Assembly: GCA_018825985.1 (NCBI GenBank)
Contig: JAHKAP010000018.1
Coordinates: 4,134 to 68,133 of the forward strand
Length of the DNA: 64,000 bases
From: Candidatus Omnitrophota bacterium
GTDB taxonomy: Bacteria; Omnitrophota; Gorgyraeia; Gygaellales; Profunditerraquicolaceae
Reading direction: 5' to 3'
The notes under the pieces were generated by a model, which saw only the letters and a list, made by a program, of their open reading frames with translations, had not been told where the DNA came from and did not search any database. How positions within the stretch are numbered: the first letter of the stretch is position 1; each line of letters begins with the position of its first letter. Position numbers and translations under genes: made by a program. Positions 1 through 39,102 of this stretch are shown here, one piece after another.

Positions 1-1242
1 CAGAAGCACTCCTGTTACTGTATTAAAATAAGGCTTCTCGAAGAACCAGGGGCTAGTCCCGGAACCAAGCTTTGCTTGTAAGGTAGACATATAGATAGCT
101 GCATAATGAATAAGAGCCCAAATAATGACCCAAGACTTAACCCAAAATAGATAGATAAAATACTCCTTTAAAATACTGAAAGTTCCGAATAAAAGGCATA
201 ACAACAAAGTAAACGGAAATAAACTATAGATAATCATTACCGCGTAACCCTGTAAGTACGGCAGAGCCTTAATCATAAACTCAGACAAAGTGGTTGAAAA
301 AAACTGCCCTACAAATGATGAAGCATAGGCCAGCCAACTGGCTGGCTGCCTCATTATCCAGCTTAAGCTGGCACTCTTAGATTCTATGCCGTAGCCGGTC
401 ATATTAGAGGCTATATTTGTAGCTGCCTTCTCAGTGTGTCCGGCAAGAAGCCTTATCTTTATTGCCTTGTAATCTATGAAGAGATCAGTAAAAGGGCCCT
501 TAGCGCCTAATTTGCCTATCTCTGTTTTGATATAATCGGTTAGCCTTAAATCCAGGGCTTCCCAACGCTTTCTTTGCTCCAAATCATAGTTCATTATTAC
601 CTCTTCATTTCCCGGCCACCATTTCTTGGTTATTTTTGTTTCTGTTTTGGTGTTATTCACCATTCTGCCTAAAGTCTGAGGGTATTCGTTTTTAAGGAAG
701 CTCTCGAGGTCCTTTCTTAAGGCGTTATCCTTCTTAATCCCTTCAGCGCTAAAATGCTGTAGATATAAAGAAACTTTATTTACGATAAAAGGGTTGTTAA
801 GATAATTAAAATCCTTCTGCTGAGTAACCTTGGTGATAGCGCTTATCGTGCCATAGACAATGGCATTGTAACCTTGACTGATTAAAACAAGCCCTAAAGA
901 GCCGGCCCGGGATTTACCGGTGTCAATAAAGACTTCTTTTAAGGCTTCCTGGGTTGAGTTGCCTTTCCAGCCGGCTGCTTCCATAGTAGAAGTAGCATCT
1001 TCAAGGCTAGCCATAGGCTTAATAAAGACAAATAAAAGAATACAAAACATCATTAAATAACTCCATAAAATTGAAAAATCTGTTTCTTTAACCGATCTCC
1101 ACAAAGTAGTCAACAACCCAATAAGAAAAACAGCCAAACCTATCTTTGTCTCAAAAAACAGAAAATCTATTATTGACTTGGCATTAACCAAGCCAATAAC
1201 CTCGAAAGCCGCTTCTGCGGGAGATATACCTGTGGGAATCAT
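1..1242 (-). CDS. hypothetical integral membrane protein, partial; the C-terminal part lies beyond the window start
   Basis: The minus-strand frame is open from the ATG at 1240-1242 (MIPTGISPAEAAFEVIGLV...) to the window edge. Hydrophobic helices lie at both ends around a hydrophilic core. It is absent from the ORF track only because it is open at the edge. No family recognised. Confidence 0.45.
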   Translation of the reverse strand, partial: MIPTGISPAEAAFEVIGLVNAKSIIDFLFFETKIGLAVFLIGLLTTLWRSVKETDFSILWSYLMMFCILLFVFIKPMASLEDATSTMEAAGWKGNSTQEALKEVFIDTGKSRAGSLGLVLISQGYNAIVYGTISAITKVTQQKDFNYLNNPFIVNKVSLYLQHFSAEGIKKDNALRKDLESFLKNEYPQTLGRMVNNTKTETKITKKWWPGNEEVIMNYDLEQRKRWEALDLRLTDYIKTEIGKLGAKGPFTDLFIDYKAIKIRLLAGHTEKAATNIASNMTGYGIESKSASLSWIMRQPASWLAYASSFVGQFFSTTLSEFMIKALPYLQGYAVMIIYSLFPFTLLLCLLFGTFSILKEYFIYLFWVKSWVIIWALIHYAAIYMSTLQAKLGSGTSPWFFEKPYFNTVTGVLL

Positions 1243-5683: not shown

Positions 5684-7483
5684 TTATTTTTCCTGTTTGT
5701 TTAAGCGGGATTTAAGATCTTCATACTCCTGCCATAATTCTATAGGAAGATCTTTCTTGAATTCCCGGAAAAACTTTTTTATTCCCTCTAATCCTCCAAT
5801 CCATGATTTTTTATCTATGGCAAATAATTTTTCTAAATTACCCCTGGGCAGGTCAAGACCGGTCATATCTATATCGTTAAAAGCCTTGGGGATATATCCT
5901 ATCGGGGTCTGGCGAGCATCTACTTTATCATTACAGCGGTCCAATATCCACTCTAAAACCCGCAGATTCTCCCGGTACCCGGGCCAGAGAAATTTATTAT
6001 TTTCATCCATTCTGAACCAGTTAACATGAAAGATCTTGGGCGGTTTATGCATCTTCTTTCCCATATTCAGCCAGTGACGGAAATACTCCGCCATATTGTA
6101 GCCGCAAAAAGGAAGCATAGCCATCGAGTCGCGCCTAACCTCTCCTTGTTTCCCAAATTGGGCGGCAGTCCGTTCAGAAGCCATAGTAGAGCCCACAAAT
6201 ACCCCATGCTGCCAATTAAAAGCTTCATAAACTAAAGGCGCCAAGTGCTGCCTGCGGCCGCCGAATACGATCGCCGAGATCTGAACGCCATGATGATGTT
6301 CGATCCTAAAAGAGGCTGAAGGGCACTGGCTAAAAGGCGTGGTAAATCTACTGTTAGGGTGAGCGGCTAAAACCGGTTTACCGTCCTTATCCTGCATACC
6401 GGGCCTCCAGGGATTACCTTGCCAATCAATTCCTGCCTGGGGCACATCTCCGTCAGCATCCTCCCACCAGACCGTTCCATCCGGCTTTAAAAGCACATTA
6501 GTATATATGGTATTCTTTTTGATCGTTTCAACCATATTGGGATTTGTCCGGGAATTAGTCCCTGGAGCAACTCCGAAAAATCCGGTTTCCGGGTTAATCG
6601 CCCAAAGCGCGCCGTCAGAATCTATGCGCATCCAGGAGATGTCATCGCCTACCGTCCAAATCCGGTAACCTTTTTTCTTAAGTCCTTCCGGAGGCAAAAG
6701 CATAGCTAAATTAGTTTTACCGCAGGCGCTAGGAAATGCCGCCCCGATATATTTAATATGGCCGTTCGGCTCTTCAATACCCATGATCAGCATATGTTCT
6801 GCAAACCACGCTTCCTTACGTCCGATATAGCTTGCTAATCGCAAGGCCATGCATTTCTTGCCTAAAAGCACATTGCCGCCATAGCCTGAACCTACGCTCC
6901 AGATAGTATTATCCTGAGGGAAATGCAGTATTAATCTTTTATTAATATCCAAATCCGCCAGGGAATGTAAACATTTGGTAAATTCCGGTTCCTTGTCTAA
7001 ATGCTCCAGGACACTCATGCCCACCCTGGTCATTATCATCATATTTAAAACCACATAGCGCGAATCAGTCAGCTCTACTCCGATTTTACTGAAAGGAGAA
7101 CCAACCGGGCCCATTGAAAAAGGAATGACATACATTATCCTTCCTCTCATCGACCCTTTGAAAATTGCCCTGGCTTTCTTATAGGCTGCGGTTGGTGACA
7201 TCCAGTTATTATTCGGTCCGGCAGCATGTTTTTTCTTCGTACAAATATAAGTAAGATGTTCGGTGCGGGCAACATCATTAGGATTAGTCCGATGCAGGAA
7301 ACATCCGGGCAGCTTATTCTGATTTAAAGGTATGAGTTCTCCAGAGGCAACAGCTTCTTTTTCCAACCTTTCCTTCTGCTCAAGCGTTCCGTCTATCCAG
7401 ACTATCTCATCCGGCTCGCACATCCGGCTGGCTTTAGCAACCCAATTCTTTAATTCTTTGTTGCGTGTAATAAATTTCGTCAT
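5684..7483 (-). CDS. pckG: phosphoenolpyruvate carboxykinase (GTP)
   Basis: FPSACGKTN kinase-1a motif and overall GTP-PEPCK similarity. The likely start is the ATG at 7481-7483 (MTKFITRN), preceded by GGAGAA and abutting the trxB stop; the track ORF runs further upstream. Confidence 0.85.
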
Positions 7484-10750: not shown

Positions 10751-10796
10751 AGAAAAAACAAGGGACACCCTCGCAGCTAAAGCTAAGGGTGTCCCT
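10751..10796 (-). terminator. intrinsic terminator of the giant gene, formed by a GGGACACCC/GGGTGTCCC hairpin plus a U-run on the minus strand
   Basis: A 9-10 bp GC-rich stem (10762-10796) is followed on the minus strand by UUGUUUUUU, directly downstream of the stop at 10816. The same hairpin family recurs at 47417-47501. Confidence 0.55.
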
Positions 10797-10815
10797 ATTA
10801 TCCTATTATCTATTA

Positions 10816-13800
10816 TTAACTTATCGAATCAACGATAACCAGAGCTTCCCTAAGTTCAGCCGAGCTTTCCAACGCGCTCTCTTCTTCCAGCTTACAGATA
10901 TCTATCAGACAGAGTAAGAGATTGTCAACCTGGGCATTGATCTCTTTCTTCTGGCAACAGGCAGCGATCAACTCTTTAAGCCTGTCACCTGAAGGTATAT
11001 TCCCGGCTTTAACCATATTCCTGATCTGCTCTATCTCAGAAGTAATATTGATCTGCCTTAACTGCTCCTGGCTTAAAACGGGCAAGCTGAAATTCAATCC
11101 CTTAAAACTTCCCGTAGGTTGAATGGTCATGGGTAGGGAGCGTAAGTCGATACCGCCGGTAGTTTCAGGAGCTGATTGAACCGGAGAACTACCTGTACCT
11201 TTGCCTTTAAGCTCAACAGATAGAACCTCGCCCTCCGATGACTTACCTAACAAAATCCTAAAACGTCCATCGCGATCTAACTTAGCAACTACCTGTAACA
11301 AACCACCCTTACTTATAGTATCCGGAGATATCTGGGAATTAACCAGCACGAGTAAGTTCGGCAAAATAAAGTATTCCGTAGCATCGCTCATTATATTTTT
11401 GCCAAAGTGTTCATCAAGAAACTTAGCTACTTTATCCCATGTAGCCGTTGATACATCCACCGGCGAAGCGGCGGAAACTATTACCCGCGTGACATCCGGG
11501 GTATTAAGATCAATACCTGTTTCTACATCAATGATGCGGTTAGTGGTCTCTTCTTCTGCGTCCTTACGCACCAGCTTATCCCTGCCCCATACACTTGCAA
11601 TTATACCTATTCCGATTTTCTCAATTCGCTTTTCAATATCTTGAATGTATAGATGCGCGCTGCGCGTAGGCACATCCCTGCCGTCAGCGGCAAAATGGAT
11701 TACAAATTGGTCTTTTCTTAAGTCTAATTTCTTGGCTAATCTCATCAATGCATACATATGATAAAGTGAAGAATGCACTCCGCCTTCAGAAGCAATGGTT
11801 ATATAATGGAACCTCAAATCATTCTCTTTAACCCTTTGCAATTCTTTTACCAAAACCTGAACCTCGGGCATACTTTCATCAAAGATGCCATCGCGAATAC
11901 CGCCCTTAACCAGCCTATCTACATACCACAAGGGTTGTTTATATTCTCTTAACGCAAACATGGCAAAATGGCCAACATCTGTCTGGCCTGCTTGCAAACC
12001 TCTTAAATGGTGCCTGCCTTCTTCCCAAGATAACTCTTTCCTTAACCCAATCACTTCTCCGTGCGCCTGTAGCTGAGTAAAACCACAGGCATTCTTGACC
12101 AACCAGTCATAATTGGGGGTATTGGCGAGCTTGATAGCGTCCCATTCGTAATTCTGGTCGGGATTTATACCCCAGCCATCCAAAACAGCCATCGCGATCC
12201 TGCGTTTACTTCCCTGATAATCATCAGGCAGCAAGCTCGGGTCGGATCCTTCGGGGATATCTTCTCCCAATAGATGTAATAACGTAGCCCCGTTGTTTCT
12301 AATAGTTTGCCCAGACTTTAAGGTTAATTTCCGGGTTCTTAAAGGATCATAAATAATATACGGTACTGGATTTGCAGTATGGAAAGTATCGGATTCCTTA
12401 GGATTTTCTGTCAGCCCAGCTTCTGAAGCGCCATGATCGGCAGTGATAACAAAGATTGGTATCCTTGCTTCAAAACCATTTATCCTCGAATAAAGTATCT
12501 GATTTATTTCTTTTAATCGGATCAAGAAACTATCATAATCAGTTAATAACAAGTTATCGAGAATAATCCGCGCTCTTTCATCTAGTGGATAAGAAGAAAC
12601 CTCTTCTCTTATTTTCTTAATAAACTGTCTTTTTATGCTATCGATCTTTTCTTTTATCCTTCCGATCTGCTGGTCGGTTATTTCATTGGCCTGTTTAGCT
12701 GACTTAAAGTTTCCGGTATGTTTCATCATATCTGAACCAAGTAAGTTCACCAGAATAAAATCTATAGTATCGTCATCCAATCCTCTCAATACCTCATCGG
12801 TACATTCTTTGGTTTTCATCTGGGGCGTATCTGCATAGGCCTTTTTAGATTTCTGCATTTCTATATTAATCCGCTTTTCTCCGGGATAAGGCCCATCTGT
12901 TTTCTTGCCATCTGCATTATTACCAACATGATCCTTCTTTTCGTTCTCAGAAATCTTAAGCACTTTATACATTTTGTTGGACAATATCTCGAAAAAGGTA
13001 TTAGGCACTTTAGCAATTACCTCATCAGACAAAACACTCTTGCCTTGATAATCATTACTAAATTTGATGTATCCCAATAATTTCTTAAAACCCCTGCTCC
13101 ACAGGCCTCTGGCAAAATATCCGGCCCGGTCACCCCTGACGTGCCCGACCATAACTGAATCTTCCGGCGATATAGGATGCAGCGGCTTACCGTTTTCGTC
13201 AGTAACAACAGTAAACTTTAGTACTTGCTCATTTACATCTTCCTCCAACAGGCTTTGCTCCTGTTCAACTGCCTTAGCTAAATCTGAAATTATCGGCGAG
13301 CCGGCAGCGCTTTTACTTTTTTCGCTATCAAGATGCTTCTTTATTTTATCGCGGGCATCAACAACTTTTCCAATTAACCGGTATCTTTTTTCCTTTTCCT
13401 TATTCAGCTCATCTATTTTTATATTCAATATTTCTAAAGTTTCTTCATTAAGATAGAACCTTAATGTAATAGCTGCGTCTATGGCTACTAAATCGTTTGA
13501 ACTATTGAGTCTTTCTATTAACTCTTTTAAATCATTAAATAAACTTTGGCTGGGGAAAACACCATTTTTATATAACACCTCAAGATTCCTCTCCATAGTT
13601 AAAATAATATTGATATTCGGATTTTCTTTTTTAACCTCCGCTTGCAGCGTTGTAAGATAATTATCAGCATCTTTTGTTTCTGTAACAATTGCCGAAACTA
13701 AACTTGTAACCGCTGAGCCGGCTGCGGTAACTGGCAAGCTAGAGGCGGCGTCAAAAAACGCCCTGGCCCGGCTAAAAATGCGGATAGCGGTTAACATCCC

Positions 13801-15669
13801 GGTAGGAGTTGAAATATCCGGCAACACCATAATCGCAGCGTTTGCCAATAATTTAAATTTTGATTCACAGTTTAGTAAATTACCGGCCTTATCTAAAGTC
13901 GTTGCAAAATTAACTAAAAGCGTAAAAGAGCCGGTAGTAGAATCTTCTTCCCCGGGAGATTTAACCGTGTATCCCTTTTCTTTTAAAACATTGCTTAAAA
14001 TAATAACCCTGGGATTATCGGAATAAAGTATGCTCAAAAGCTGATTTTTTTTCAACACCATAAGCGTAGCCAGCCTTTGAGCTGCAATTTCAGCAAGGCC
14101 ATTAAGCGATTCTTCTTTCCCGAAATCTTTGATCAAATAATATCTTCCATCGGCAATTTCACTCAGCAACCTCTTTTCATCATAATAAGAACTTCTTGGA
14201 TGCCTGATTAGGTTTTCCCTAAGCACCCTGTTAACACTATCTGTCGCCGAATATAATAATGATCTACTCGCGGTATCCGACAAAATACCCTTACCGTTTA
14301 AAACTACTCCTTTTAATAGATCAATATATGGTCCTGACCGGGCTTGCCGTTCAATCCTGTTATGGGCCTCCATTAAATCGTATTCTCTGCGATAATCAGG
14401 CATACCTTTAGTCGTTATCGGAGAAGCGGATATTTTTATTCCCCTCAAAGAATCGCCATCTGCTACTATTCCGGTATTAAAGATATTTGGATTAATCGGC
14501 CTGCCAATAAAACTATTCGGGTTATTTATAGGACTTCCGGCTTCTCTGCCCATATTAATCCCCCCGCTAAAATAGCTTCTGATCATCTGGCCGGTAGGGG
14601 TGTAGACAGGTTCCTTGACATTGTATTCGCCTTCCGCAAAGGATTTTTGGTAAAGTTTAAAGTAATCTGTCTTGGACCAGGCATCTTTGGAGATAAGGTT
14701 GGTCAGGTTTTTGGTTTCTATAAGAGCTGTAAAAGCAGGGACAGCCCCCTTTAAAGTACTTTCAGATACCCTGGACGGGGACAGTCCCTTGAATCTTTGT
14801 TTAAACCAGCGAGAGAGAATTAATGAATAGTATACCTGGCGAAAATTAGCGTATCTTCTGGAAGAATTTACTTCTTTGGTCAGCTTAGGAATGATCAATT
14901 CACGGATAAGCCCTGAGGAGTATTCGTTTAAAGCTTTGGAGCGTTCATCTTTAAATTGGTAAACTGAATTATTCGCAATAACAGGATTAGTCGAATTAGC
15001 CAGGTAATCTGATTCAAGCATTACCTTTAAAGTGGCTTTGTAGATATAAGCTGAATCTTCGGCTTCTCTTAAAATGATCTCACCCGGGACTATCCAGGGA
15101 CGAGTCAGGGTAGGTATATTTACGGATTCATAGCCATAAAGCTCTTCGGCTTTCTGGTAAAGCTTAGTCCAGTATTCTTTTCCTTCCGGAGTGTTAGGCG
15201 AGGTAAAAAGAGCAGTATCTTTTTTAAGCTGAAGATCGGTCTCCAGCATGATCTTGCCCACATCGGTCTTTTCCAGATACTGGTCTATGATCTGGTCTTC
15301 AGAATCAGGCCGTAGATTAACCCAAAACATGCTATCTGGAAGGGTTACACCTATTAGGAAATAATTTAAAAGGGTTTGGGTTTTGTCTTTTAAGGCTTCT
15401 TCCGGGATTTCTTCACCTTTACCTATACCTTTGCCTTCAATACCTCTGCTTAATTCATCCCCTTTATCCACCAGGAGCTTAAAACTGTTATTTAGTGAAT
15501 CATAGGAGAAATACCTTAAGTGTATCGGCCGGAACTTATCCTGAACTATATTAGAACCAAACCTGGAAAGATAATTTGCCAGGTTAAGTTCTAAGGCTAC
15601 CTGGGCAAAACTAACCTGCTGGAATAATAAGCCGAAACTTAAGACCAAAGATAAGATTTTACGGGCCAT
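10816..15669 (-). CDS. giant (1617 aa) signal-peptide protein with a duplicated, rearranged iPGM/phosphopentomutase-like alkaline-phosphatase-superfamily module at its C-terminus
   Basis: Likely start at the ATG at 15669 (MARKILSLVLSFGLLFQQVSFAQ, a signal peptide) with AGGAG 8 nt upstream; the track ORF starts 44 codons earlier. The C-terminal ~650 aa carry, in this order, VVTDENG...DSVMVGHVRGDRAG, DFILVNLLGSDMMKHTGN, ITADHG, HTANPVP, then LDGWG, QTDVGH, GGVHSS, AADGRD, IASVWGRD. The N-terminal ~900 aa match nothing I recognise. Confidence 0.7.
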   Translation of the reverse strand: MARKILSLVLSFGLLFQQVSFAQVALELNLANYLSRFGSNIVQDKFRPIHLRYFSYDSLNNSFKLLVDKGDELSRGIEGKGIGKGEEIPEEALKDKTQTLLNYFLIGVTLPDSMFWVNLRPDSEDQIIDQYLEKTDVGKIMLETDLQLKKDTALFTSPNTPEGKEYWTKLYQKAEELYGYESVNIPTLTRPWIVPGEIILREAEDSAYIYKATLKVMLESDYLANSTNPVIANNSVYQFKDERSKALNEYSSGLIRELIIPKLTKEVNSSRRYANFRQVYYSLILSRWFKQRFKGLSPSRVSESTLKGAVPAFTALIETKNLTNLISKDAWSKTDYFKLYQKSFAEGEYNVKEPVYTPTGQMIRSYFSGGINMGREAGSPINNPNSFIGRPINPNIFNTGIVADGDSLRGIKISASPITTKGMPDYRREYDLMEAHNRIERQARSGPYIDLLKGVVLNGKGILSDTASRSLLYSATDSVNRVLRENLIRHPRSSYYDEKRLLSEIADGRYYLIKDFGKEESLNGLAEIAAQRLATLMVLKKNQLLSILYSDNPRVIILSNVLKEKGYTVKSPGEEDSTTGSFTLLVNFATTLDKAGNLLNCESKFKLLANAAIMVLPDISTPTGMLTAIRIFSRARAFFDAASSLPVTAAGSAVTSLVSAIVTETKDADNYLTTLQAEVKKENPNINIILTMERNLEVLYKNGVFPSQSLFNDLKELIERLNSSNDLVAIDAAITLRFYLNEETLEILNIKIDELNKEKEKRYRLIGKVVDARDKIKKHLDSEKSKSAAGSPIISDLAKAVEQEQSLLEEDVNEQVLKFTVVTDENGKPLHPISPEDSVMVGHVRGDRAGYFARGLWSRGFKKLLGYIKFSNDYQGKSVLSDEVIAKVPNTFFEILSNKMYKVLKISENEKKDHVGNNADGKKTDGPYPGEKRINIEMQKSKKAYADTPQMKTKECTDEVLRGLDDDTIDFILVNLLGSDMMKHTGNFKSAKQANEITDQQIGRIKEKIDSIKRQFIKKIREEVSSYPLDERARIILDNLLLTDYDSFLIRLKEINQILYSRINGFEARIPIFVITADHGASEAGLTENPKESDTFHTANPVPYIIYDPLRTRKLTLKSGQTIRNNGATLLHLLGEDIPEGSDPSLLPDDYQGSKRRIAMAVLDGWGINPDQNYEWDAIKLANTPNYDWLVKNACGFTQLQAHGEVIGLRKELSWEEGRHHLRGLQAGQTDVGHFAMFALREYKQPLWYVDRLVKGGIRDGIFDESMPEVQVLVKELQRVKENDLRFHYITIASEGGVHSSLYHMYALMRLAKKLDLRKDQFVIHFAADGRDVPTRSAHLYIQDIEKRIEKIGIGIIASVWGRDKLVRKDAEEETTNRIIDVETGIDLNTPDVTRVIVSAASPVDVSTATWDKVAKFLDEHFGKNIMSDATEYFILPNLLVLVNSQISPDTISKGGLLQVVAKLDRDGRFRILLGKSSEGEVLSVELKGKGTGSSPVQSAPETTGGIDLRSLPMTIQPTGSFKGLNFSLPVLSQEQLRQINITSEIEQIRNMVKAGNIPSGDRLKELIAACCQKKEINAQVDNLLLCLIDICKLEEESALESSAELREALVIVDSIS

Positions 15670-15773
15670 TCTACGTCTCCTATGTTTATCCGCCACAAAG
15701 TCGCCACATCGATAGGCGACCCGCTTTCTGTATGGCGGGCCTAACGGATTATTTGCCTGACAAGATAGAAAGC

Positions 15774-15825
15774 AAATAAAAAACCGCAAAGCCAGACCCA
15801 AATGATTTGTTCCGTGGCAATGCGG
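15774..15825 (-). terminator. intrinsic terminator/attenuator hairpin plus U-run in the intergenic leader between pilD and the giant gene
   Basis: On the minus strand, CCGCAUUGCCAC...GUCUGGCUUUGCGG (imperfect 12-bp stem) is followed by UUUUUUAUUU. It lies 240 nt downstream of the pilD stop and about 105 nt upstream of the giant-gene ATG. Confidence 0.45.
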
Positions 15826-19242: not shown

Positions 19243-19336
19243 ATCCTTATAAAAGTAGTTAGTAGATAGTAGGTAGTATGTAGGGTTCAGTAAATTCTGA
19301 TCTTTCCCCTAATACCTACCTACTACATGCTACCTA
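19243..19336. repeat. TAGTAG-rich imperfect-palindromic intergenic repeat, copy 1 (short form)
   Basis: Fills the whole ilvC-leuA spacer. Arms GTAGTAGATAGTAGGTAGTATGTAGGG and CCCTAATACCTACCTACTACATGCTACCTACTAC flank a short loop, followed by TTTTT. Related to the copies at 25679-25796 and 28131-28261. Confidence 0.75.
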
Positions 19337-20329
19337 CTACTTTTTCATCCAGGGCATCATCTCACGAAGCTGTTTCCCCACCTTTTCGATCAGATGCTCA
19401 TCGCCTTCTTTTAACATCCGGTTAAAATTCGGCCTGCCGTCTTCATTCTCTTTGATCCACTCTTTGGCGAACTTCCCTTTTTGGATCTCTTTTAAAATCT
19501 TCTTCATCTCTTTCCTGGTCTTTTCGGTAATTATCCTCTTGCCCCGGCTTAAATCCCCGTAACAAGCAGTATTGGAAACTCCCCGGCGCATCCCGGATAT
19601 ACCCTTTTCCTGGATCAAATCGGTAATTAATTTTAACTCATGTAATACTTCAAAATAGGCTATCTCTGGTTGATAACCAGCCTCAACCAAAGTATCAAAA
19701 CCAGCCTTAATCAGCTCGGTCACTCCGCCGCAAAGCACAGCCTGTTCTCCGAAAAGATCAGTTTCGGTTTCTTCGGTAAAAGTAGTTTCAATTACTCCGG
19801 CCTTGGTTGCGCCTATAGCTTTGGCATAAGCCAAACCAATCTGACGGGCCACTCCAGTGGCATCCTGAAAAACCGCTAATAAACAAGGAACACCCTTGCC
19901 CTCCTCAAACATCCTGCGGACTAACGCTCCCGGTCCTTTGGGCGCGACCATAAACACATCCACATTCTTAGGCGGCTTTATTTGTTTAAAACGGATATTA
20001 AAACCATGGGAAAAACAAAGGGCCTTCCCCTTTTTTAGATTCGGCTTGATGCTTTCATTATAAACCTTGGACTGAACATGATCCTGGGTTAATATCTGTA
20101 TAATATCTCCGGCCTTAGCAGCTTCTAAAGCTGGGACAGGGGTAAACCCGTCTTTTTTAGCCTGCTCAAAATTAACAGTCCCCTCCATTTCAGAAACCAC
20201 TACATGGCATCCGGAATCACGCAAACACAATGCCTGGCCCCGGCCCTGAATACCATAACCAATAATAGCGATAGTCTTATCTTTCAACAAACTCAGATCC
20301 GCATCCTGCTCATAATAAATTTTAATCAT
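19337..20329 (-). CDS. ilvC: ketol-acid reductoisomerase
   Basis: [14 protein letters not shown]-binding motif and full-length KARI similarity. Confidence 0.9.
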
Positions 20330-20898: not shown

Positions 20899-22323
20899 CT
20901 ATACTAAGTTTATAAATATCTCGGTAGTCTTTGGGTCATAACGGATACCGCTGTATTTTTTTAATTCCTCTTTTGCCTCGCTAAAACTTAAACCTTTACG
21001 GTAAGGCCTGTCGGTGGTCATGGCGTCAAAAGAATCCGCGATAGAAAGGATCCTGGCGCCCATAGGTATCTCATCCCCCTTTAAGCCATCCGGGTAACCT
21101 GTGCCGTCAAGCGACTCATGGTGGTACCTGATTATACTGCACAGCCTTGAAAGAGACCTTATCGGCTTAACGATACCTTCGCCGATCACCGGATGCCCGC
21201 GCATTACCCGGGCCTCATCCTCATTTAAAAAAGTTGGTTTTCTTAAAATATCGTCACTTATCCCGATTTTACCTACATCATGAAGAAGGGCTGCGTCTTT
21301 TAAGGATTTGATAAAATCCTGGTCCAGCCCCAATTCTTTAGCGATCTTAACCGAATAGTCAGCCACCCTGTCCGAATGGCCGCGGCTATATAGATCACGG
21401 GCCTCAACTGCCATAGCTAAAGCGGAGATTGTCTCCAGATATGTCTTTTCGGCATCGATATTTAACCTTTCATTTTCCACCGCTACAGCTGTCTGGGTAG
21501 CTAAATTAGAGATAATTATTAATTCATCTTCCTGAAAATTACCCGGGATTATCTTACCCGCTACCGCCAAGACCCCAACGATTTTATCTTTATACAACAT
21601 TGGCGCGCACAACAAAGGCGGAGCAAAAGGATCTTCACCCGAACGTTCACCCGTTTTATTGACATCGGGAACCAACAATGGTTTTTTATTTTTCGCTGCC
21701 CATCCCGGGCCTTCTTCGCCTATTTTTAATCTTAAAGAGCTAAAGACACTGCCTATCCCGGCCGAAGCTTTAATATATAACTCCTGTTTTGCATCATCAA
21801 CAAGCATTAATGCTCCGGTCTTAGCGTCCAAGGCATTTGTGGTTACCTCAATGATCAATTCTAAAAAAGTATCGATGTTTTTAGAATTGGATATCCCGGC
21901 GGCAAGCTTGGTCAAGACATCCTGTATTGTCCGCTTTGATGCCTCCAGACGCTTAATATTCTCCTCCAGATTCTTGGTAATTTCATTAAAGGTTTTGGCT
22001 AACTGAGTTATTTCGCTTTCATCATCTTTAACCTCACCCAAAACAGAAATACCCCCCCCTAATGAACCCCTAGTTTTTCTGGACAATTCCTGGATCTTTT
22101 TTATAGAACTGCGCATACTAAAAAAACCGATCATAGAACCGATCCCGATAAGAAATATGATCCTTATTAATACTCCATGACTGATATTAATTGTATCCGA
22201 GTTATTGGACCGGATCAGTAAAAAAGTAACTACTAAAAAAGGTAAAATCGACATTACAAAGAACAATACCGAGAACTTTCGGATTATAGAAGAATCTCTT
22301 ATTGAAGTTAGTTTAAGCGCCAT
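20899..22323 (-). CDS. membrane sensor HD-GYP c-di-GMP phosphodiesterase (2 TM, HAMP-like linker, GAF domain, HD-GYP domain)
   Basis: LHDVGK and HHESLDGTGYP motifs of HD-GYP, a GAF-like central region and two N-terminal hydrophobic helices. Sits between ilvB and ilvN with 16-nt and 6-nt gaps. Confidence 0.8.
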   Translation of the reverse strand: MALKLTSIRDSSIIRKFSVLFFVMSILPFLVVTFLLIRSNNSDTINISHGVLIRIIFLIGIGSMIGFFSMRSSIKKIQELSRKTRGSLGGGISVLGEVKDDESEITQLAKTFNEITKNLEENIKRLEASKRTIQDVLTKLAAGISNSKNIDTFLELIIEVTTNALDAKTGALMLVDDAKQELYIKASAGIGSVFSSLRLKIGEEGPGWAAKNKKPLLVPDVNKTGERSGEDPFAPPLLCAPMLYKDKIVGVLAVAGKIIPGNFQEDELIIISNLATQTAVAVENERLNIDAEKTYLETISALAMAVEARDLYSRGHSDRVADYSVKIAKELGLDQDFIKSLKDAALLHDVGKIGISDDILRKPTFLNEDEARVMRGHPVIGEGIVKPIRSLSRLCSIIRYHHESLDGTGYPDGLKGDEIPMGARILSIADSFDAMTTDRPYRKGLSFSEAKEELKKYSGIRYDPKTTEIFINLV

Positions 22324-25660: not shown

Positions 25661-25678
25661 AATAGAACCTCCAAGCAA

Positions 25679-25796
25679 CTTTAGTATTTAGTAGATAGTA
25701 GTTAGGTTTTAGGGAAAACCTTCACCCTATATCCTACCTACTGTCTTTGAATTTGCTTTTCCCTACCTACTATATACTACCTACTACATACTGCTT
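25679..25796. repeat. TAGTAG-rich imperfect-palindromic intergenic repeat, copy 2
   Basis: Fills the fba-ilvD spacer and is nearly identical to copy 3 over about 115 nt (AGTATTTAGTAGATAGTAGTTAGGT...TTTCCCT.CTACT..ATACTACCTACTA.ATACTGCTTTTA). Confidence 0.8.
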
Positions 25797-27119
25797 TTAA
25801 TCAGCGCCTTCTCCGTCATGCACCACTTCGCTGTCTTGGCGCTTACGAATAATAACCCTTTTTAAAATCACGTATTTATCTATTAATTCCTTATTATTTA
25901 AATTATTCAACTGTTTAAACAGGAAATCAAACTTAGCCTCAATCTCCGCGGCAATGGCATTGCGCGTTTCAACAGGTAAAGACATAATCTCTTTTTTAAA
26001 AGGCCCTAATGCTTTTTTGCGGGTCTTATAGAAAAACTGTTCTTCGGTTTCGCCGGCCTTTGCCTCAGATGCGGCATTGACTTTCAACCATTCATAAATC
26101 TTAAGCTTCAAAGCGGCTGGAAAATGCTTGCTCTCGTAAATCATATTCTGGAATTCTGTTGCCAGATGAACCTCGGCGGCATCGCATTCCGGGAATTTAT
26201 GAAAAGCCTCGGCCGGAAGGGTTGATGCCCCGTGCTGAACAGCCCCGGATAAACCAAATTCTTTTCTGGAGATATTGGAGAGATTCTTTAAGGTATCAAA
26301 GTCCAGCTTTACCTGGGCAATTGAACCGTCAGGCAAAACCACCCCGCCATGAGAAGTCCCGGTCTGAATGGAAATCTTGCTTATCCCGGTTAACCCTTTG
26401 CGTAACTTTTCTTTATATCCGTTCATAAACGCCCTTAGATCTTCCGGCGTGGAATTTTGATGGCCGACTTCCCCGATCTCCCCGCCTACTGAAACAGTAA
26501 TTCCTTTAGGCTCGATCCTGCGTATAAACTGTGTTAACCTGGCGCAAACCTCATAATTTAACTGCTGTTGTTTTTTAATATCAGTCTTAGAAAGGTCCAC
26601 AACTGTTGAAGAATCAATATCAATATTATAAAATCCCGCGGATATCGCATCGGTTATCAGGGCCTTTAGCCCTTCCATCTCTTTATCCGGGTCTTCCTTG
26701 AATTTTTTAGCGTTAACCTGAAAATGGTCGCCCTGGATAAAGACAGGTCCTCTAAACCCCTCCTTTACTGCCGCGGCAACGATAACCGCAGAATATTCAA
26801 CCGGAGGCTGGTTAGTATAGCCCATCTCTGACTTAGCGATCTCAAAAATCACCGCGCCGCTATTATTCTTTTTTGCCGTCCTAAATAATGCCTTGGCCAG
26901 GTCATAAGTCATACTTCTTAAATTTATGGCCGGCACGGTAAAACCGCTAAAATCCCCCTTGCCCATAGCTATGTAGAAATCATGAATGCTTGAAGGGTAA
27001 ACCCCATTCTTATAACCCAAATCCAAAATCTTCTTGGCAATCTTTTTCTTGAGAGCTGTCCCATCAGCCATAATTAATTCCATTACAATCTTATCCATGT
27101 CCATCGGCCTTCTTCCCAT
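25797..27119 (-). CDS. fba: class II (metal-dependent) fructose-bisphosphate aldolase, long form
   Basis: VPAINLRS, QGDHFQ, GGEIGEVGH and HGASTLP blocks parallel the class II FBA metal and substrate sites; 440 aa. Confidence 0.7.
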   Translation of the reverse strand: MGRRPMDMDKIVMELIMADGTALKKKIAKKILDLGYKNGVYPSSIHDFYIAMGKGDFSGFTVPAINLRSMTYDLAKALFRTAKKNNSGAVIFEIAKSEMGYTNQPPVEYSAVIVAAAVKEGFRGPVFIQGDHFQVNAKKFKEDPDKEMEGLKALITDAISAGFYNIDIDSSTVVDLSKTDIKKQQQLNYEVCARLTQFIRRIEPKGITVSVGGEIGEVGHQNSTPEDLRAFMNGYKEKLRKGLTGISKISIQTGTSHGGVVLPDGSIAQVKLDFDTLKNLSNISRKEFGLSGAVQHGASTLPAEAFHKFPECDAAEVHLATEFQNMIYESKHFPAALKLKIYEWLKVNAASEAKAGETEEQFFYKTRKKALGPFKKEIMSLPVETRNAIAAEIEAKFDFLFKQLNNLNNKELIDKYVILKRVIIRKRQDSEVVHDGEGAD

Positions 27120-28130: not shown

Positions 28131-28261
28131 GATAAGTTCAGTATTTAGTAGATAGTAGTTAGGTATTAGGGAAAATCTACGCCCTAAGCTCTACCTGCTA
28201 TATACTTGCTACTGCCTTTGTTTTTCCCTGTCTACTACATACTACCTACTATATACTGCTT
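28131..28261. repeat. TAGTAG-rich imperfect-palindromic intergenic repeat, copy 3
   Basis: Fills the ahcY-pfkA spacer and is near-identical to copy 2. Confidence 0.8.
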
Positions 28262-29518
28262 TTACGTTCCAATTTCCCAACTTGATAAATACTTCTTCTG
28301 CTGCGCAGTTAGAATATCTATCTTTATGCCCATAGATTTAAGCTTAAGATAAGCGATATTATTATCTATATCCTCGGGAACAGTATAGACATCTTTATTA
28401 AGCTTGCGAAAGCTATTCTTTATATACTCCGCGCTTAAAGCTTGATTAGCAAAAGACATATCCATAACCTGAGCCGGATGTCCCTCTGCGGCAGCAAGGT
28501 TAATCAACCGGCCTTCTCCCAATAAATAAACCCTGCGTCCATTCCTAAGCTTATACTCAACCACAAAATCGCGGATAGTTTTCTTAGACCGGGCAAGTTT
28601 TTCCAAAGACGGAATCTCTATCTCTACGTTAAAATGTCCGGAATTACAGACTATTGCCCCGTCCTTCATTATTATAAAATGTTCCTCACGGATCACATTA
28701 ATATCCCCGGTAACCGTTACAAATATATCTCCGATCCTGGCGGCGTCTTTTATAGGCATTACCTGAAATCCATCCATAACCGCTTCCAGGGCTTTTAAAG
28801 GAGAAATTTCGATTACATATACATTAGCTCCCATTCCCTTGGCTCTCATGGCCACTCCCCTGCCGCACCATCCATAACCGCAGACCACAAAATTTGAGCC
28901 GGCCACCAATTTATTGGTTGCCCGGATTATTCCGTCAATAGTAGATTGGCCCGTGCCATAACGATTATCAAAAAGATGCTTGGTCAAAGCGTCATTTACG
29001 GCGATTATCGGATAACGCAATTTACCCTCTTTAGCCAGGGCCTTTAACCGGATCACTCCGGTAGTGGTCTCTTCGGTTCCGCCGATAATATTGCTATGCA
29101 TTGATACCGGACGCTGATGGATAGTGCTGACTAAATCAGCTCCGTCATCCATTGTAATATCAGGTCTTAGTGCCAAAACTTCTTGCATATGCTTGTAATA
29201 AGTTTTTGTATCTTCACCCTTAACAGCGAATACCGGAATCTTCAAATTCTTAACTAAAGAAGCAGCCACATCATCCTGGGTAGATAAAGGATTGGAAGCG
29301 CAAACCACAACTTCAGCCCCGCCAGCCTTTAATACTTCCGCTAGAACCCCGGTTTCGGTAGTAACATGCAAACAGCAGGATATCTTTACTCCTTTTAAAG
29401 GTTTTCCTTTATGAAAACGCTCAAGCAAAAGCCTTAAAACCGGCATGTTATTTCTGGCCCACTCGATCCGGAGCGCGCCCTTTTTAGCTAATTTTATATC
29501 CTTGATATCATGTCGCAT
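28262..29518 (-). CDS. ahcY: adenosylhomocysteinase
   Basis: Full-length AHCY similarity with a [11 protein letters not shown] site. Confidence 0.9.
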
Positions 29519-29534
29519 CCCATCTCCTATTTTT

Positions 29535-29596
29535 ATTAGGGACAGCGACTATTTTTTTAGAAAGTTGCTTTGGAAAAAATAGTCGCTGTCCCTAAT
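29535..29596. terminator. perfect 23-bp inverted repeat (ATTAGGGACAGCGACTATTTTTT, 14-nt loop) acting as a terminator/attenuator between metK and ahcY
   Basis: The two arms are exactly complementary. A half-copy of the same arm recurs at 38986-39005. Confidence 0.6.
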
Positions 29597-29605
29597 ATTC
29601 CAATA

Positions 29606-35308: not shown

Positions 35309-35381
<73 letters not shown>

Positions 35382-35414
35382 CGTCGCTCGCTATATGTTT
35401 TTTCCATATAATAG

Positions 35415-35496
35415 TGCGGACGAAGGGATTTGAACCCCCAAGGGTTGCCCCAATAGCTCCTAAGGCTATCGCGTATGCCAATTCCGCCACGTCCGC
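35415..35496 (-). tRNA. tRNA-Leu (UAG), type II with a long variable arm
   Basis: GCGGACG acceptor, AUAGC-CUUAGGA-GCUAU anticodon arm, long variable arm GGGGCAACCC, UUCAAAU T-loop. Confidence 0.85.
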
Positions 35497-35554
35497 AGAG
35501 CTTTTTCCCTTTTACCGCTTCGCTCTTGACTATTAACTTTTGATTCTGAATTTA

Positions 35555-35627
35555 TGAGCCTCCCGCGGATCGAACGCGGCACAGCCACATTAAAAGTGTG
35601 GTGCTCTACCAGATGAGCTAGAGGCCC
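35555..35627 (-). tRNA. tRNA-Lys (UUU)
   Basis: GGGCCUC acceptor, CCACA-CUUUUAA-UGUGG anticodon arm, GUUCGAUC T-loop. Confidence 0.85.
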
Positions 35628-38413: not shown

Positions 38414-38492
38414 ATTGAACTCCCCCTTTCAATGAATTGGCTAGATACTGGTTTCAAAAAGTACCTAATAACGGTTTAAATTACTTAACTAA

Positions 38493-38520
38493 TAGACCTT
38501 TGAGTATAGCATATTTTCTG
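38493..38520 (-). promoter_or_regulatory. candidate rpsB promoter (TTGCAA, 16 nt spacer, TATACT)
   Basis: Hexamers seen on the minus strand about 80 nt upstream of the rpsB start. Confidence 0.4.
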
Positions 38521-38569
38521 CCCCTTGCAACTATTTTTTCAATTAAAATTGCTTAAAAAAATAACTTTA

Positions 38570-38652
38570 ACACGGATTTGCGCTGATTTATTAACGGATT
38601 CCCACGGATTATCCGGCATATCCGTTATTTATATCCGTGCATATCCGCGCCA
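38570..38652. promoter_or_regulatory. array of 7 CGGAT/ATCCG pentamer half-sites (3 direct CGGAT, then 4 ATCCG), including the palindrome CGGATTATCCG
   Basis: Read directly from the sequence. Lies between the divergent rpsB and rpmB promoters. Confidence 0.4.
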
Positions 38653-38687
38653 AATTGTACTTTTTAAGTATTCTCCAATTAAAAAAC

Positions 38688-38715: not shown

Positions 38716-38758
38716 TAACTATACTTTAATCCTAAAAAATCCCAAAAAGAGGTGGAAT

Positions 38759-39074: not shown

Positions 39075-39102
39075 CCATTTCCTTGATCAGAACCGTCCCC
39101 TT

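What the first reader, a model, noticed from the sequence alone, without database searches (positions are those of the whole stretch)
19243..19336. New family of TAGTAG-rich imperfect palindromes that fill whole intergenic spacers (copy 1, upstream of leuA)
Three spacers (19243-19336, 25679-25796 and 28131-28261) hold related elements of 90-130 bp built from (TAGTAG)/(CTACTA) arms around an A/T-rich core. The left arm is AGTATTTAGTAGATAGTAGTTAGG and the right arm is CCTACCTACTA.ATACTGC. Each element starts directly after the stop codon of the upstream gene (ilvC, fba, ahcY) and ends 15-25 nt before the RBS of the next gene (leuA, ilvD, pfkA). On the transcribed minus strand each would form a long imperfect hairpin followed by U-rich sequence. 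They could be intrinsic terminators or attenuators. Because they are nearly identical and repeated, they could instead be MITE- or REP-like elements that are still mobile in this genome. Copy 1 is shorter and more diverged than copies 2 and 3.
Basis: seen in the sequence. Interest (0 to 1): 0.6.

Follow-up and report, generated by a model that had tools for sequence, protein, structure and literature searches.

The report
Stop-codon-rich hairpin repeats between genes
Three gene spacers in this Omnitrophota genome hold copies of a hairpin-forming repeat whose arms are runs of the 7-base unit TAGTAGN, and the same always-TAG-first design, sitting at stop codons, occurs in at least eight bacterial phyla and appears undescribed.

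Summary
The three spacers hold related imperfect palindromes, and no Rfam family matches them.

- **Structure.** Each arm is a period-7 array, TAGTAGN on one side and NCTACTA on the other. Every element closes all three reading frames within 25 nt of each end, on both strands. Each element also supplies the upstream gene's stop codon.
- **Copying.** Copies 2 and 3 are 83% identical. They share a derived extra arm and the stop codon plus linker (TAAAAG), so one was copied from the other.
- **Relatives.** A simpler 75-80 nt form sits right after ahcY in two other Omnitrophota. It is 84-93% identical to the window copies, while fourfold-degenerate sites are only 47-66% identical. Other relatives have an empty site, overlapping genes or unrelated hairpins.
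- **Other phyla.** An exact 18-mer from the arm hits more than 120 loci. These gave 48 inverted array pairs in 22 assemblies from at least eight phyla. All 48 are TAG-first and all are intergenic.
- **What they are not.** They lack canonical terminator features, show no covariation and no sense-strand folding bias, and no transposase lies nearby.

Best reading: a REP/MITE-like dispersed hairpin that acts as gene-boundary punctuation. The mechanism is inferred, not shown.

The parts
19251..19339 (-). Copy 1 (el1), in the ilvC-leuA spacer. It is the simple hairpin form, and the ilvC stop codon is its first TAG unit.
   Evidence: Sense sequence...ATG AAA AAG TAG TAG GTAG.... nhmmer E=2.9e-9 against the simple-form profile.
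19316..19340 (-). el1 5' arm in the sense direction: a TAGTAGG-type heptamer array, read as CTACCTA on the + strand. It includes the ilvC stop codon TAG at 19337-19339, followed by a second in-frame TAG.
   Evidence: TRF period 7, 3.6 copies. Stop codons appear in frames 0, 1 and 2 at element positions 1, 8 and 15.
19254..19283 (-). el1 3' arm in the sense direction: a CTACTAN-type array, read as AGTAGGT/TAGTAGA on the + strand. It ends 9 nt before the leuA ribosome-binding site AAGGA.
   Evidence: TRF period 7, 4.3 copies. Inverted-repeat pairs I1-I7.
25679..25799 (-). Copy 2 (el2), in the aldolase-ilvD spacer. It is the simple hairpin plus an extra 5' TAG-type arm. The stop codon TAA (25797-25799) and the linker AAG are shared with copy 3.
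   Evidence: It is 93% identical to the L225 element and 91% identical to the L226 element.
25757..25792 (-). el2 outer 5' arm in the sense direction (TAG-type).
   Evidence: Inverted repeat I1, 36 nt, 78% complementary. TRF period 7/14.
25725..25743 (-). el2 inner TAG-type arm in the sense direction. It is the 5' arm of the simple-form hairpin.
   Evidence: nhmmer aligns the simple-form profile to 25743-25678.
25681..25718 (-). el2 3' arm in the sense direction: CCCTAAAACCTAACTACTATCTACTAAATACT, CTA-type. It is the best conserved part. It ends 7-12 nt before the ilvD ribosome-binding site GGAGG (25668-25672).
28131..28264 (-). Copy 3 (el3), in the ahcY-pfkA spacer. It has the same architecture as copy 2. 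The stop codon TAA is at 28262-28264. This copy is orthologous in position to the elements after ahcY in L225 and L226.
28222..28258 (-). el3 outer 5' arm in the sense direction (TAG-type).
   Evidence: Inverted repeat I1, 37 nt, 76% complementary. TRF period 7.
28182..28214 (-). el3 inner TAG-type arm in the sense direction.
   Evidence: Inverted repeat I2, 33 nt, 73% complementary, 10-nt loop. nhmmer hit at 28214-28137.
28139..28175 (-). el3 3' arm in the sense direction (CTA-type). It ends 8 nt before the pfkA ATG.

Best explanation
The three spacers hold members of one family of non-coding, hairpin-forming dispersed repeats. This family belongs to a much wider class that appears to be undescribed.

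**The class**
- It is an inverted pair of short period-7 arrays, (TAGTAGN)n ... core ... (NCTACTA)n, always in that order.
- Because the unit is 7 nt long and carries two TAG triplets, three units put stop codons in all three frames.
- Because the pair is a palindrome, the same is true on the other strand.
- The element sits at a gene boundary. The TAG arm starts at, or is, the upstream gene's stop codon. The CTA arm ends a few nucleotides before the next gene's start region.

**Behaviour (partly shown).** The elements behave like REP/MITE-type repeats. Whole elements, arms plus core, get copied to new gene ends within a genome. They are gained and lost among relatives, and they need no gene of their own nearby.

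**Action (inferred).** In the polycistronic transcript the element is a piece of punctuation.
- It ends translation in any frame at the foot of a long imperfect hairpin.
- The hairpin can protect the upstream 3' end or pause transcription.
- The hairpin also buries the G-free leader of the next gene. A ribosome terminating on the 5' arm would open it.

The agent that copies the elements is unknown.
For: **Shown in the window**
- The family is real and far beyond chance.
- Arms are period-7 arrays that pair in several registers.
- All three frames are closed within 25 nt of each end on both strands in all three copies.
- The ilvC stop codon is the first array unit. Copies 2 and 3 share TAAAAG-CAGTAT, where relatives have TAG or an overlapping GTGA at the same gene ends.

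**Copying within the genome**
- Copies 2 and 3 share a derived extra arm that the L225 and L226 forms lack.

**Gain, loss and persistence among relatives**
- An element lies 3 nt after the ahcY stop in the window, L225 and L226, although the downstream gene differs.
- L227 has a 20-nt empty aldolase-ilvD spacer and an unrelated 38-nt ahcY-pfkA spacer.
- In L132, ahcY and pfkA overlap by 4 nt. L130 has other hairpin families in these spacers.
- Element identity is 84-93%, against 47-66% at fourfold-degenerate sites.
- In L023/L025, a solo array is 40/41 identical while fourfold sites are 46-62% identical. The two upstream ORFs end in different frames on different TAA triplets of that array.

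**The wider class**
- The exact 18-mer hits at least 120 loci. My estimate of the chance expectation is about 17.
- There are 48 TAG-first and 0 CTA-first inverted pairs, in 22 assemblies from at least 8 phyla. The sign test over assemblies gives p=5e-7.
- All 48 pairs are intergenic. They lie a median of about 4 nt from the upstream stop codon and 5-30 nt from the next start codon. Of the pairs with both neighbours known, 24 are co-directional, 6 convergent and 4 divergent.
- Solo sense TAG arrays lie a median of 2 nt from the stop codon. Solo sense CTA arrays lie a median of 12 nt from the next start codon.
- Ordinary spacer hairpins show no such polarity: 94 G-first against 108 C-first.
- Several genomes hold multi-copy families with a genome-specific conserved core, for example Bacteroides sp. 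519 and Tannerella.
Against: - No target-site duplication could be defined.
- No transposase or RAYT gene was seen in about 80 kb of this genome.
- Genes lying between distant arrays are ordinary housekeeping genes, not transposases.
- No gene family is enriched across the 120 loci.
- Only 3 copies occur in about 80 kb, and all lie within 9 kb. The genome-wide copy number is unknown.
- The ahcY copy is old and better conserved than synonymous sites. That fits host-level function, or homogenisation among copies, as well as mobility.
- An RNA-level role is not supported by structure statistics. There is no covariation. There is no sense-strand advantage in 26 co-directional elements (10 against 16, p=0.12).
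- Some pairs lie between convergent or divergent genes, where translational coupling cannot apply.
- The distance of CTA arrays to start codons is partly biased by my longest-ORF gene calling.
Confidence: 0.5

Rival explanations
1. The elements are a host-made punctuation or translational-coupling module, not a mobile element. TAG arrays grow from stop codons and CTA arrays grow in front of start codons, both by replication slippage. Template switching within the quasi-palindrome then makes them complementary. Each arm has its own job: an all-frame stop, and a G-free unstructured leader. Selection keeps them in place.
For: - Solo arrays already show the two positional rules: 2 nt from the stop codon and 12 nt from the start codon.
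- Arrays are conserved above synonymous sites in two independent lineage pairs.
- The CTA arm is much better conserved than the TAG arm.
- Stop codons lie in phase with the array.
- Heptamer direct repeats just upstream of start codons have been described and are suspected to act on translation (PMC4679880; bioRxiv 10.1101/2022.06.06.494920).
- No transposase was found.
Against: - Copies 2 and 3 share a unique core, a derived extra arm and the TAAAAG linker at two unrelated gene ends. Slippage in place cannot produce that.
- Conserved unique cores occur at many loci in Bacteroides sp. 519 and Tannerella.
- Presence among close relatives is patchy.
Confidence: 0.2
2. The elements are intrinsic transcription terminators or attenuators of the ilv/leu and glycolytic genes.
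For: - The hairpins are long and stable, with z-scores of -3 to -4.
- They sit right after stop codons.
- Copy 1 is followed by UUUU in the sense RNA.
- All three are followed by 4-5 T on the antisense strand.
- Copies 2 and 3 have two alternative 5' arms for one 3' arm, which looks like an attenuator.
- Across the wider class, 30 of 34 pairs with both neighbours known lie where a terminator could make sense, that is between co-directional or convergent genes.
Against: - The consensus scan finds no terminator-like site in the elements.
- Copies 2 and 3 have no U tract in the sense RNA.
- Stems are A/T-rich and imperfect, with loops of 10-70 nt.
- Only 7-12 nt remain before the next ribosome-binding site, which leaves no room for a new promoter.
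- There is no covariation and no sense-strand bias.
- There is no Rfam leader or riboswitch match.
- The downstream gene differs among orthologous copies: pfkA in two lineages, a DUF4140 gene in another.
- A hairpin function alone does not explain the 48:0 polarity.
Confidence: 0.12
3. The heptamer arrays are binding sites for a sequence-specific DNA- or RNA-binding protein, such as a nucleoid protein, a regulator, S1 or a Csp-like protein. The hairpin is secondary.
For: - Conservation is at the sequence level rather than the structure level, and is asymmetric: the CTA arm is nearly invariant while the TAG arm varies.
- Identical 18-mers recur across phyla.
- The period of 7 is kept throughout.
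- The literature proposes such binders for other heptamer repeats (PMC4679880).
Against: - No candidate protein was identified.
- No gene family co-occurs with the arrays.
- The same motif across eight phyla would need a very widely conserved binder.
- It does not explain why whole elements with unique cores are copied.
Confidence: 0.1
4. The elements are neutral by-products. They are slippage-prone simple repeats that persist in spacers only because they cannot lie inside genes.
For: - Heptanucleotide repeats are the commonest long simple repeats in prokaryotes, and units that are not a multiple of 3 are excluded from coding DNA (Mrazek 2007, as cited in PMC4679880).
- Unit numbers vary between copies.
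Against: - Conservation is far above that of fourfold-degenerate sites.
- The polarity is strict, 48:0.
- The elements sit tightly against stop and start codons.
- About 1 Mb of unselected bacterial DNA has almost none.
Confidence: 0.06

Closest known systems
REP / REPIN elements (repetitive extragenic palindromes mobilised by RAYT, i.e. TnpA-REP, Y1 transposases)
   Same: - Both are intergenic, non-coding imperfect palindromes that are dispersed within a genome.
- Families are genome-specific.
- Both often lie just after stop codons inside operons.
- The GTAG tetranucleotide that heads REPs occurs in every unit here.
- REPs are known to stabilise upstream mRNA. From my own knowledge, REPs within about 15 nt of a stop codon also interfere with terminating ribosomes.
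   Different: - REPs are 20-40 nt, G+C-rich single palindromes, and REPINs are doublets of such palindromes. Here the arms are A/T-rich tandem heptamers that are not palindromic themselves.
- No RAYT gene was seen.
- The copy number here looks low.
- REPs carry no all-frame stop codons and show no fixed purine-first polarity across phyla.
Bacterial MITEs (Correia/NEMIS, RUP, Nezha, BOX-like elements)
   Same: - Size is 75-290 nt.
- Both have terminal inverted repeats and no coding capacity.
- Both are multi-copy with a conserved core.
- Relatives show both filled and empty sites.
   Different: - No target-site duplication was found.
- No parent insertion sequence with the same ends was found.
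- The ends are tandem arrays of variable unit number rather than a fixed inverted-repeat sequence.
- The same end sequence recurs in eight phyla with unrelated cores.
Intergenic heptamer direct repeats: TAACTGA repeats of Beggiatoaceae, Cyanobacteria and Bacteroidetes (MacGregor 2015, PMC4679880), cyanobacterial STRR and other contiguous heptamers, and 'long simple sequence repeats' (Mrazek 2007)
   Same: - The period is 7.
- They are intergenic, often a few nucleotides upstream of start codons.
- The unit contains stop codons, so arrays cannot enter genes in the forward orientation.
- They are found in Bacteroidetes and Cyanobacteria.
- Their function is unresolved, and translational control is suspected.
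   Different: - Those are direct repeats. Only one inverted set was noted among 170 in the Beggiatoa genome.
- The unit sequence differs.
- They do not form hairpins.
- No link to the upstream stop codon was described.
- No dispersed copies with unique cores were described.
Integron attC sites
   Same: Both are imperfect palindromes of 60-140 nt that fill the spacer from the stop codon of one gene to the start of the next in a same-strand gene array.
   Different: - The genes here are housekeeping genes with conserved synteny, not cassettes.
- GTTRRRY-like words occur, but in the wrong arm and orientation.
- No integrase was seen.

Membership tests
REP / REPIN | A short (about 20-40 nt) imperfect palindrome. 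For a REPIN, two such palindromes in inverted orientation. | tested here: not met
   The arms are 25-37 nt tandem heptamer arrays and are not palindromic themselves. The whole hairpin is 75-134 nt.
REP / REPIN | A conserved GTAG or GGAG tetranucleotide at the 5' end. | tested here: inconclusive
   GTAG occurs several times in each TAG-type arm. There is no single defined head, and the conserved outer ends are CAGTA...TACTG.
REP / REPIN | High copy number, usually more than 100 per genome. | not testable with these tools
   Only about 80 kb of this genome could be read, and it holds 3 copies within 9 kb.
REP / REPIN | A cognate RAYT (Y1 transposase) gene in the genome, flanked by REPs. | not testable with these tools
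   None appears among the Pfam-annotated genes of the roughly 60 kb covered by gene calls. No gene family is enriched near the arrays in 120 loci. The rest of the genome was not seen.
MITE | Terminal inverted repeats and a small non-coding body. | tested here: met
   Inverted arms are 75-88% complementary. Stop codons lie in all six frames.
MITE | A target-site duplication flanking each copy. | tested here: inconclusive
   The flanks of el2, el3, L225 and L226 and the empty site in L227 give no consistent direct repeat.
MITE | An autonomous insertion sequence with the same ends that encodes a transposase. | tested here: not met
   Genes lying between distant TAG...CTA arrays are PilT, COX3, ThiC, CheR/CheB and SurE. 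There is no recurrent gene family. The sample is limited.
MITE | Several copies with a shared core, and filled versus empty sites among relatives. | tested here: met
   el2 and el3 are 83% identical and share a derived structure. L227 has an empty aldolase-ilvD site. Multi-copy families occur in other genomes.
Intrinsic (Rho-independent) terminator | A G+C-rich stem with a small loop, followed at once by a U tract. | tested here: not met
   The scan finds no site in the elements. el2 and el3 lack U runs in the sense RNA, and el1 has only UUUU.
Heptamer tandem-repeat arrays (LSSR / STRR / TAACTGA type) | At least 3 head-to-tail copies of a 7-nt unit, intergenic and near gene starts. | tested here: met
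   TRF gives period 7 with 3.6-4.3 copies in every arm. Positions are shown. The unit TAGTAGN is not one of the published units.
Integron attC | R''/R' core sites (RYYYAAC ... GTTRRRY) in the cassette orientation, an integrase, and mobile cassettes. | tested here: not met
   The words occur in the opposite arms (reading). The genes are syntenic housekeeping genes in relatives that lack the elements.
Any Rfam family | A score at or above the gathering threshold. | tested here: not met
   Only three tRNAs were found in the window. The permissive scan gave one chance hit, MIR2118, at E=0.71 and 22.7 bits against an 85-bit threshold.

The most novel reading that the evidence does not exclude
TAG-first heptamer palindromes, (TAGTAGN)n-core-(NCTACTA)n, are a class of gene-boundary punctuation elements that spans phyla and has not been recognised. 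They supply stop codons in all six frames. They place a hairpin under the terminating ribosome and bury the next gene's leader, so they insulate or couple the translation of neighbouring genes. The host selects for them, since they are conserved well above synonymous sites. They spread by an unknown copying mechanism, or they arose convergently in Bacteroidota, candidate-phyla-radiation bacteria (Paceibacterota, Uhrbacteria), Omnitrophota, Cyanobacteria, Verrucomicrobia, Chloroflexota and others.
Probability: 0.3. Interest if true: 0.8.

Novelty: new variant of a known kind. Interest (0 to 1): 0.62.

Why it matters
Small dispersed palindromes such as REPs and MITEs, and heptamer repeats, are each known, but their functions are mostly unsettled.

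- **A rule that asks for a mechanism.** The two features combine here into one design with a strict rule: the stop-rich arm always comes first, at the stop codon. The rule holds in at least 22 genomes from at least eight phyla. A plain hairpin cannot explain that, so either a shared mechanism or a shared selective pressure is needed.
- **Testable in culture.** If the elements set translation and mRNA boundaries, they would be a general and compact punctuation device. This can be tested directly in cultured carriers such as Bacteroides sp. 519, B. stercorirosoris DSM 26884 and Chlorogloeopsis PCC 6912. It would also be useful as a synthetic insulator part.
- **If they are mobile.** Their mobilising enzyme and their preference for stop codons would both be new.
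- **Annotation.** They explain why spacers in these compact genomes turn over quickly while gene order stays fixed. They also mark places where gene ends are defined by a repeat.

Tried and rejected
- **Rfam.** The gathering and permissive scans found nothing relevant.
- **Promoter and terminator scan.** There were no sites in the elements.
- **Strain polymorphism.** The eight assemblies that carry the locus are 99.9-100% identical, so they give no information.
- **Metagenome scan for the window-specific core pattern.** It returned 0 hits.
- **Viral contigs.**
  - The arm 18-mer gave 6 hits and a TGA-based control gave 5.
  - That is too few to compare.
  - The elements are not visibly phage-borne.
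- **Plasmids.** blastn with el2 found no match.
- **Autonomous parent element.** Genes between distant arrays are housekeeping genes. All-against-all clustering of 765 ORFs from the 120 loci shows no associated family.
- **RNA-level selection.**
  - Sense against antisense folding energy shows no bias.
  - RNAalifold shows no covariation.
- **General 'G-first' polarity of spacer hairpins.** It is absent, so the polarity is specific to this class.
- **Arm asymmetry in length or purity across phyla.** The result was not significant.
- **Tc1/IS630-like reading.** This rested on the CAGT...ACTG ends and a TA target. I rejected it because there is no TA duplication at the junctions.
- **Integron attC reading.** I rejected it because the genes are syntenic housekeeping genes and the core sites are in the wrong orientation.
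- **More of the same genome.** Two look-ups failed. The 16 kb of extra sequence that was obtained holds no further copy.
Full report
**1. The observation**

The window is a Candidatus Omnitrophota MAG contig. It is identical or 99.9% identical in eight public assemblies. Every credible gene lies on the minus strand. In the direction of transcription the order is:

metK, ahcY, [el3], pfkA, a class-II aldolase-like gene, [el2], ilvD, ilvB, a GAF/HD gene, ilvN, ilvC, [el1], leuA.

The three spacers hold related sequences.
- TAGTAGATAGTAG with up to 2 mismatches occurs 12 times against 1.1 expected.
- CTACCTACTA with up to 1 mismatch occurs 15 times against 2.9 expected, all in the three spacers.
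- nhmmer with el2 and el3 as the profile recovers el1 at E about 1e-8.
- TRF shows that each arm is a period-7 array.
- The inverted arms can pair in several registers 7 nt apart.
- Both strands fold well, with z-scores of -3 to -4.

The corrections are listed in the observation check.

**2. Anatomy**

In the sense direction a simple element reads as follows:
- the stop codon;
- a 0-3 nt linker;
- a TAG-type arm, CAGTA(T/G)-TAGTAGG-TAGTA.. -TAGGG;
- a short loop;
- a CTA-type arm, TTTTCCCTAAAACCTAACTACTATCTACTAAATACTG.

el2 and el3 carry a second TAG-type arm plus about 18 nt upstream of this unit.

Because the unit is 7 nt long and contains TAG twice, stop codons fall in all three frames. In all three elements every frame is closed within 15-25 nt of either end, on both strands.

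The elements also supply the upstream genes' stop codons.
- The ilvC stop TAG is the first array unit. It is followed by a second in-frame TAG.
- el2 and el3 both begin TAA-AAG-CAGTAT. Relatives end the aldolase gene with TAG.
- In one relative, ahcY and pfkA overlap as GTGA.

The copied unit therefore includes the stop codon.

**3. Relatives**

Synteny of the metK-to-pilD block is conserved in Omnitrophota with 81-94% IlvD identity. The spacers, in contrast, turn over.
- **L132.** ahcY and pfkA overlap by 4 nt, and the pfkA-aldolase spacer is 15 nt.
- **L130.** The spacers hold other hairpins built from tandem 7-8 nt units: TATCGGG, TAAGTGTG (in two spacers) and CAAGTCAC.
- **L227** (PfkA 90% identical). 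The aldolase-ilvD spacer is 20 nt, which is an empty site. The ahcY-pfkA spacer is 38 nt and unrelated.
- **L225** (GCA_043812955.1) and **L226.** Both carry a simple-form TAGTAG element 3 nt after the ahcY stop codon. In L226 the next gene is a DUF4140/4139 gene rather than pfkA.

These elements are 84-93% identical to el3 and el2. Fourfold-degenerate sites of ahcY and pfkA are only 47-55% identical for L225 and 66% for L226. The 3-nt linker and the stop codon itself differ between lineages.

From this I draw three conclusions:
- The ahcY copy is old and is kept much better than neutral sequence.
- el2 arose later, by copying an el3-like element that already had the extra arm.
- el1 is a more diverged simple form. 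It sits where relatives have an extra 197-200 aa ORF.

**4. The wider class**

My estimate of the chance expectation is about 17 matches in 596 Gb. The hits include:
- Bacteroidales and Tannerella, Chitinophagaceae, and Ignavibacteria;
- Paceibacterota, Uhrbacteria and Saccharibacteria;
- Omnitrophota;
- heterocystous Cyanobacteria;
- Verrucomicrobia, Chloroflexota and Chrysiogenales;
- isolates such as Bacteroides sp. 519, B. stercorirosoris DSM 26884 and Chlorogloeopsis PCC 6912.

In these loci I found 103 TAG-type and 94 CTA-type arrays of at least 3 units. Among them were 48 inverted pairs within 250 nt.

*Polarity*
- All 48 pairs are TAG-first and none is CTA-first.
- They come from 22 assemblies. 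The sign test over assemblies gives p=5e-7.
- The search pattern does not favour either order.

*Position of the pairs*
- All 48 are intergenic.
- The end next to the stop codon lies a median of about 4 nt from it, and the codon is often inside the array.
- The other end lies 5-30 nt from the next start codon.
- By gene orientation, 24 are co-directional, 6 convergent and 4 divergent.

*Solo arrays*
- Sense TAG arrays sit a median of 2 nt after the stop codon (n=21).
- Sense CTA arrays sit a median of 12 nt before the next start codon (n=36).
- The second figure is partly inflated by my longest-ORF gene calls. The examples I read individually are genuine starts.

*Controls and examples*
- Ordinary spacer hairpins in about 1 Mb of unselected loci show no purine-first bias, 94 against 108.
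- That unselected DNA has practically no TAGTAG arrays.
- With an exact period-7 criterion on the unselected set plus the window, TAG gives 6 pairs stops-first and 0 the other way. TAA gives 2 and 0.
- Copy-rich genomes have families with a conserved, genome-specific core and arms of variable unit number.
- In a G+C-rich Chloroflexota contig (L045), a minimal 58-nt hairpin lies between convergent genes, and both stop codons are inside its arms.
- In two Omnitrophota species (L023/L025), a solo array is 40/41 identical while fourfold sites are 46-62% identical. The two orthologous upstream ORFs end in different frames on different TAA triplets of the array. This directly illustrates the all-frame stop property.

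**5. What the elements are not**

- No Rfam family matches.
- There are no consensus terminators or promoters in the elements, and el2 and el3 have no U tract.
- Five family members show no covariation.
- Across 26 co-directional elements there is no sense-strand folding advantage.
- I found no transposase between distant arrays, near the window, or as a recurrent neighbour.
- There is no visible presence on plasmids or enrichment in viral contigs.
- The roughly 16 kb of extra sequence from the same genome has no further copy.

**6. Interpretation**

*Shown*
- This is a real repeat family with period-7, stop-rich, palindromic arms.
- A whole element, including the stop codon, has been copied within the genome.
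- Elements are gained and lost among relatives.
- Conservation is above the synonymous rate.
- The polarity is strict and the elements sit at gene boundaries in at least eight phyla.

*Inferred*
- The elements are REP/MITE-like dispersed repeats.
- Their persistence depends on being harmless or useful at gene ends. They end translation in any frame at the foot of a hairpin that lies within the footprint of the terminating ribosome. The hairpin pairs with the G-free leader of the next gene.
- That arrangement would give protection of the upstream 3' end, insulation from read-through and frameshifted ribosomes, and coupling of downstream initiation to upstream termination.

This accounts for the polarity, the abutment to stop codons, the closeness to start codons and the excess of co-directional contexts. 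It does not account for the copies between convergent or divergent genes, and it has no RNA-structure statistics behind it.

*Rivals*
- The main rival is that the arrays are made in place and are selected by the host, with no mobility.
- The unknown copying agent is the weakest point of the mobile reading.

**7. Comparison with what is known**

The closest known kinds are:
- REP/REPIN elements;
- bacterial MITEs;
- intergenic heptamer direct repeats, which include TAACTGA (PMC4679880), contiguous heptamers in Nostoc (bioRxiv 10.1101/2022.06.06.494920), and the long simple sequence repeats of Mrazek 2007 as cited there.

The elements fail the defining features of REP/REPIN that I could test. 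They meet the structural features of a MITE, but I could not identify a target duplication or a parent insertion sequence. They do meet the definition of heptamer tandem arrays.

Full-text searches for six rotations and variants of the arm sequence found no bacterial paper.

I therefore rate this as a new variant of known kinds. It combines a heptamer array with a dispersed palindrome, and it adds a cross-phylum polarity rule that I did not find described.

Noticed in passing
window 29519-29605; also about 38480-38530 within the spacer 38414-39102: The metK-ahcY spacer holds a near-perfect 24-28 bp hairpin: AATATTAGGGACAGCGACTATTTTTT ... AAAAAATAGTCGCTGTCCCTAATA (-36 kcal/mol over 87 nt). Its 3' arm recurs in the 689-nt spacer at 38414-39102. 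That spacer also holds a nested GGGGTCAGAATTATTTTTT hairpin, which is seen again in L228 5973-6161.
   Followed up: partly
window 10761-10795, 47416-47450, 47466-47500; L228 7314-7409; L129 and L132 spacers: There is a second hairpin repeat family that is commoner in this clade: GGGACACCC...GGGTGTCCC and GGGGACGGTTCTC...GAGAACCGTCCCC. These look more like classical G+C-rich REPs than the TAGTAG elements do.
   Followed up: partly
window 10795-10815: The heptamers TAATAGA TAATAGG ATAATAGG carry two stop codons per unit. They lie directly after the stop codon of the 1661-aa ORF and directly before a GGGACACCC hairpin with a T run. This is another all-frame stop array placed in front of a hairpin.
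   Followed up: no
window 1-64000: All credible genes (about 54) are on the minus strand, and GC skew is negative throughout. Three tRNA genes lie at 35310-35627.
   Followed up: no
window 20899-22323: A GAF plus HD-domain gene sits between ilvB and ilvN in this lineage only. It is absent in L129, L130 and L132. Conversely, a 197-200 aa ORF lies between ilvC and leuA in L129 and L130 but is missing here, where el1 sits.
   Followed up: partly
window 10816-15801: This is a 1617-1661 aa ORF whose only Pfam hits are the Metalloenzyme and iPGM_N domains. That is unusually large for a phosphoglycerate-mutase-like protein.
   Followed up: no
window 1-1242 and beyond the window start (L231 13585-20996): The window begins inside a TraG_N gene. 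Upstream lie a type IV secretion coupling protein, an HTH gene and an Imm_superinfect gene. Together these indicate an integrated conjugative element next to the window.
   Followed up: no
L130 4236-4334, 5591-5705, 7385-7496, 11653-11761; L225 2253-2340, 8535-8647: Related Omnitrophota fill the orthologous spacers with other hairpins whose arms are tandem 7-8 nt units: TATCGGG, CAAGTCAC, TAAGTGTG (in two spacers), TTCATAG and TAGGTAT. Several of them start in phase with the upstream TAG stop codon.
   Followed up: partly
L045 1345-1403 (Chloroflexota MAG CAXNFZ010000061.1): In a G+C-rich genome, a minimal 58-nt hairpin of (TAGTAGA)x3 and (CTACTAA)x3 lies between convergent genes. The stop codons of both genes are inside the arms.
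   Followed up: partly
L023 and L025 (reverse strand, around 5760-5805 and 2485-2530): An orthologous solo CTACTAN array lies between two genes in two Omnitrophota species. It is 40/41 identical while fourfold-degenerate sites are 46-62% identical. The upstream ORFs terminate in different frames on different TAA triplets of the array.
   Followed up: yes
L012, L026, L048, L057, L063, L082, L089, L099 (Tannerella sp. Gx485_bin220): This is a multi-copy family with a conserved core of about 110-150 nt between TAGTAG arms. It has an additional outer inverted repeat, ATGCGAATCAG ... CTGATTCGCAT. This is the most MITE-like version of the class.
   Followed up: partly
L225 end and L129 start (GCA_043812955.1): In the 94%-IlvD relative, two contigs end on either side of the aldolase-ilvD spacer. 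The spacer that holds el2 in the window is therefore unassembled there. A repeat or a strain polymorphism at that site is possible.
   Followed up: no
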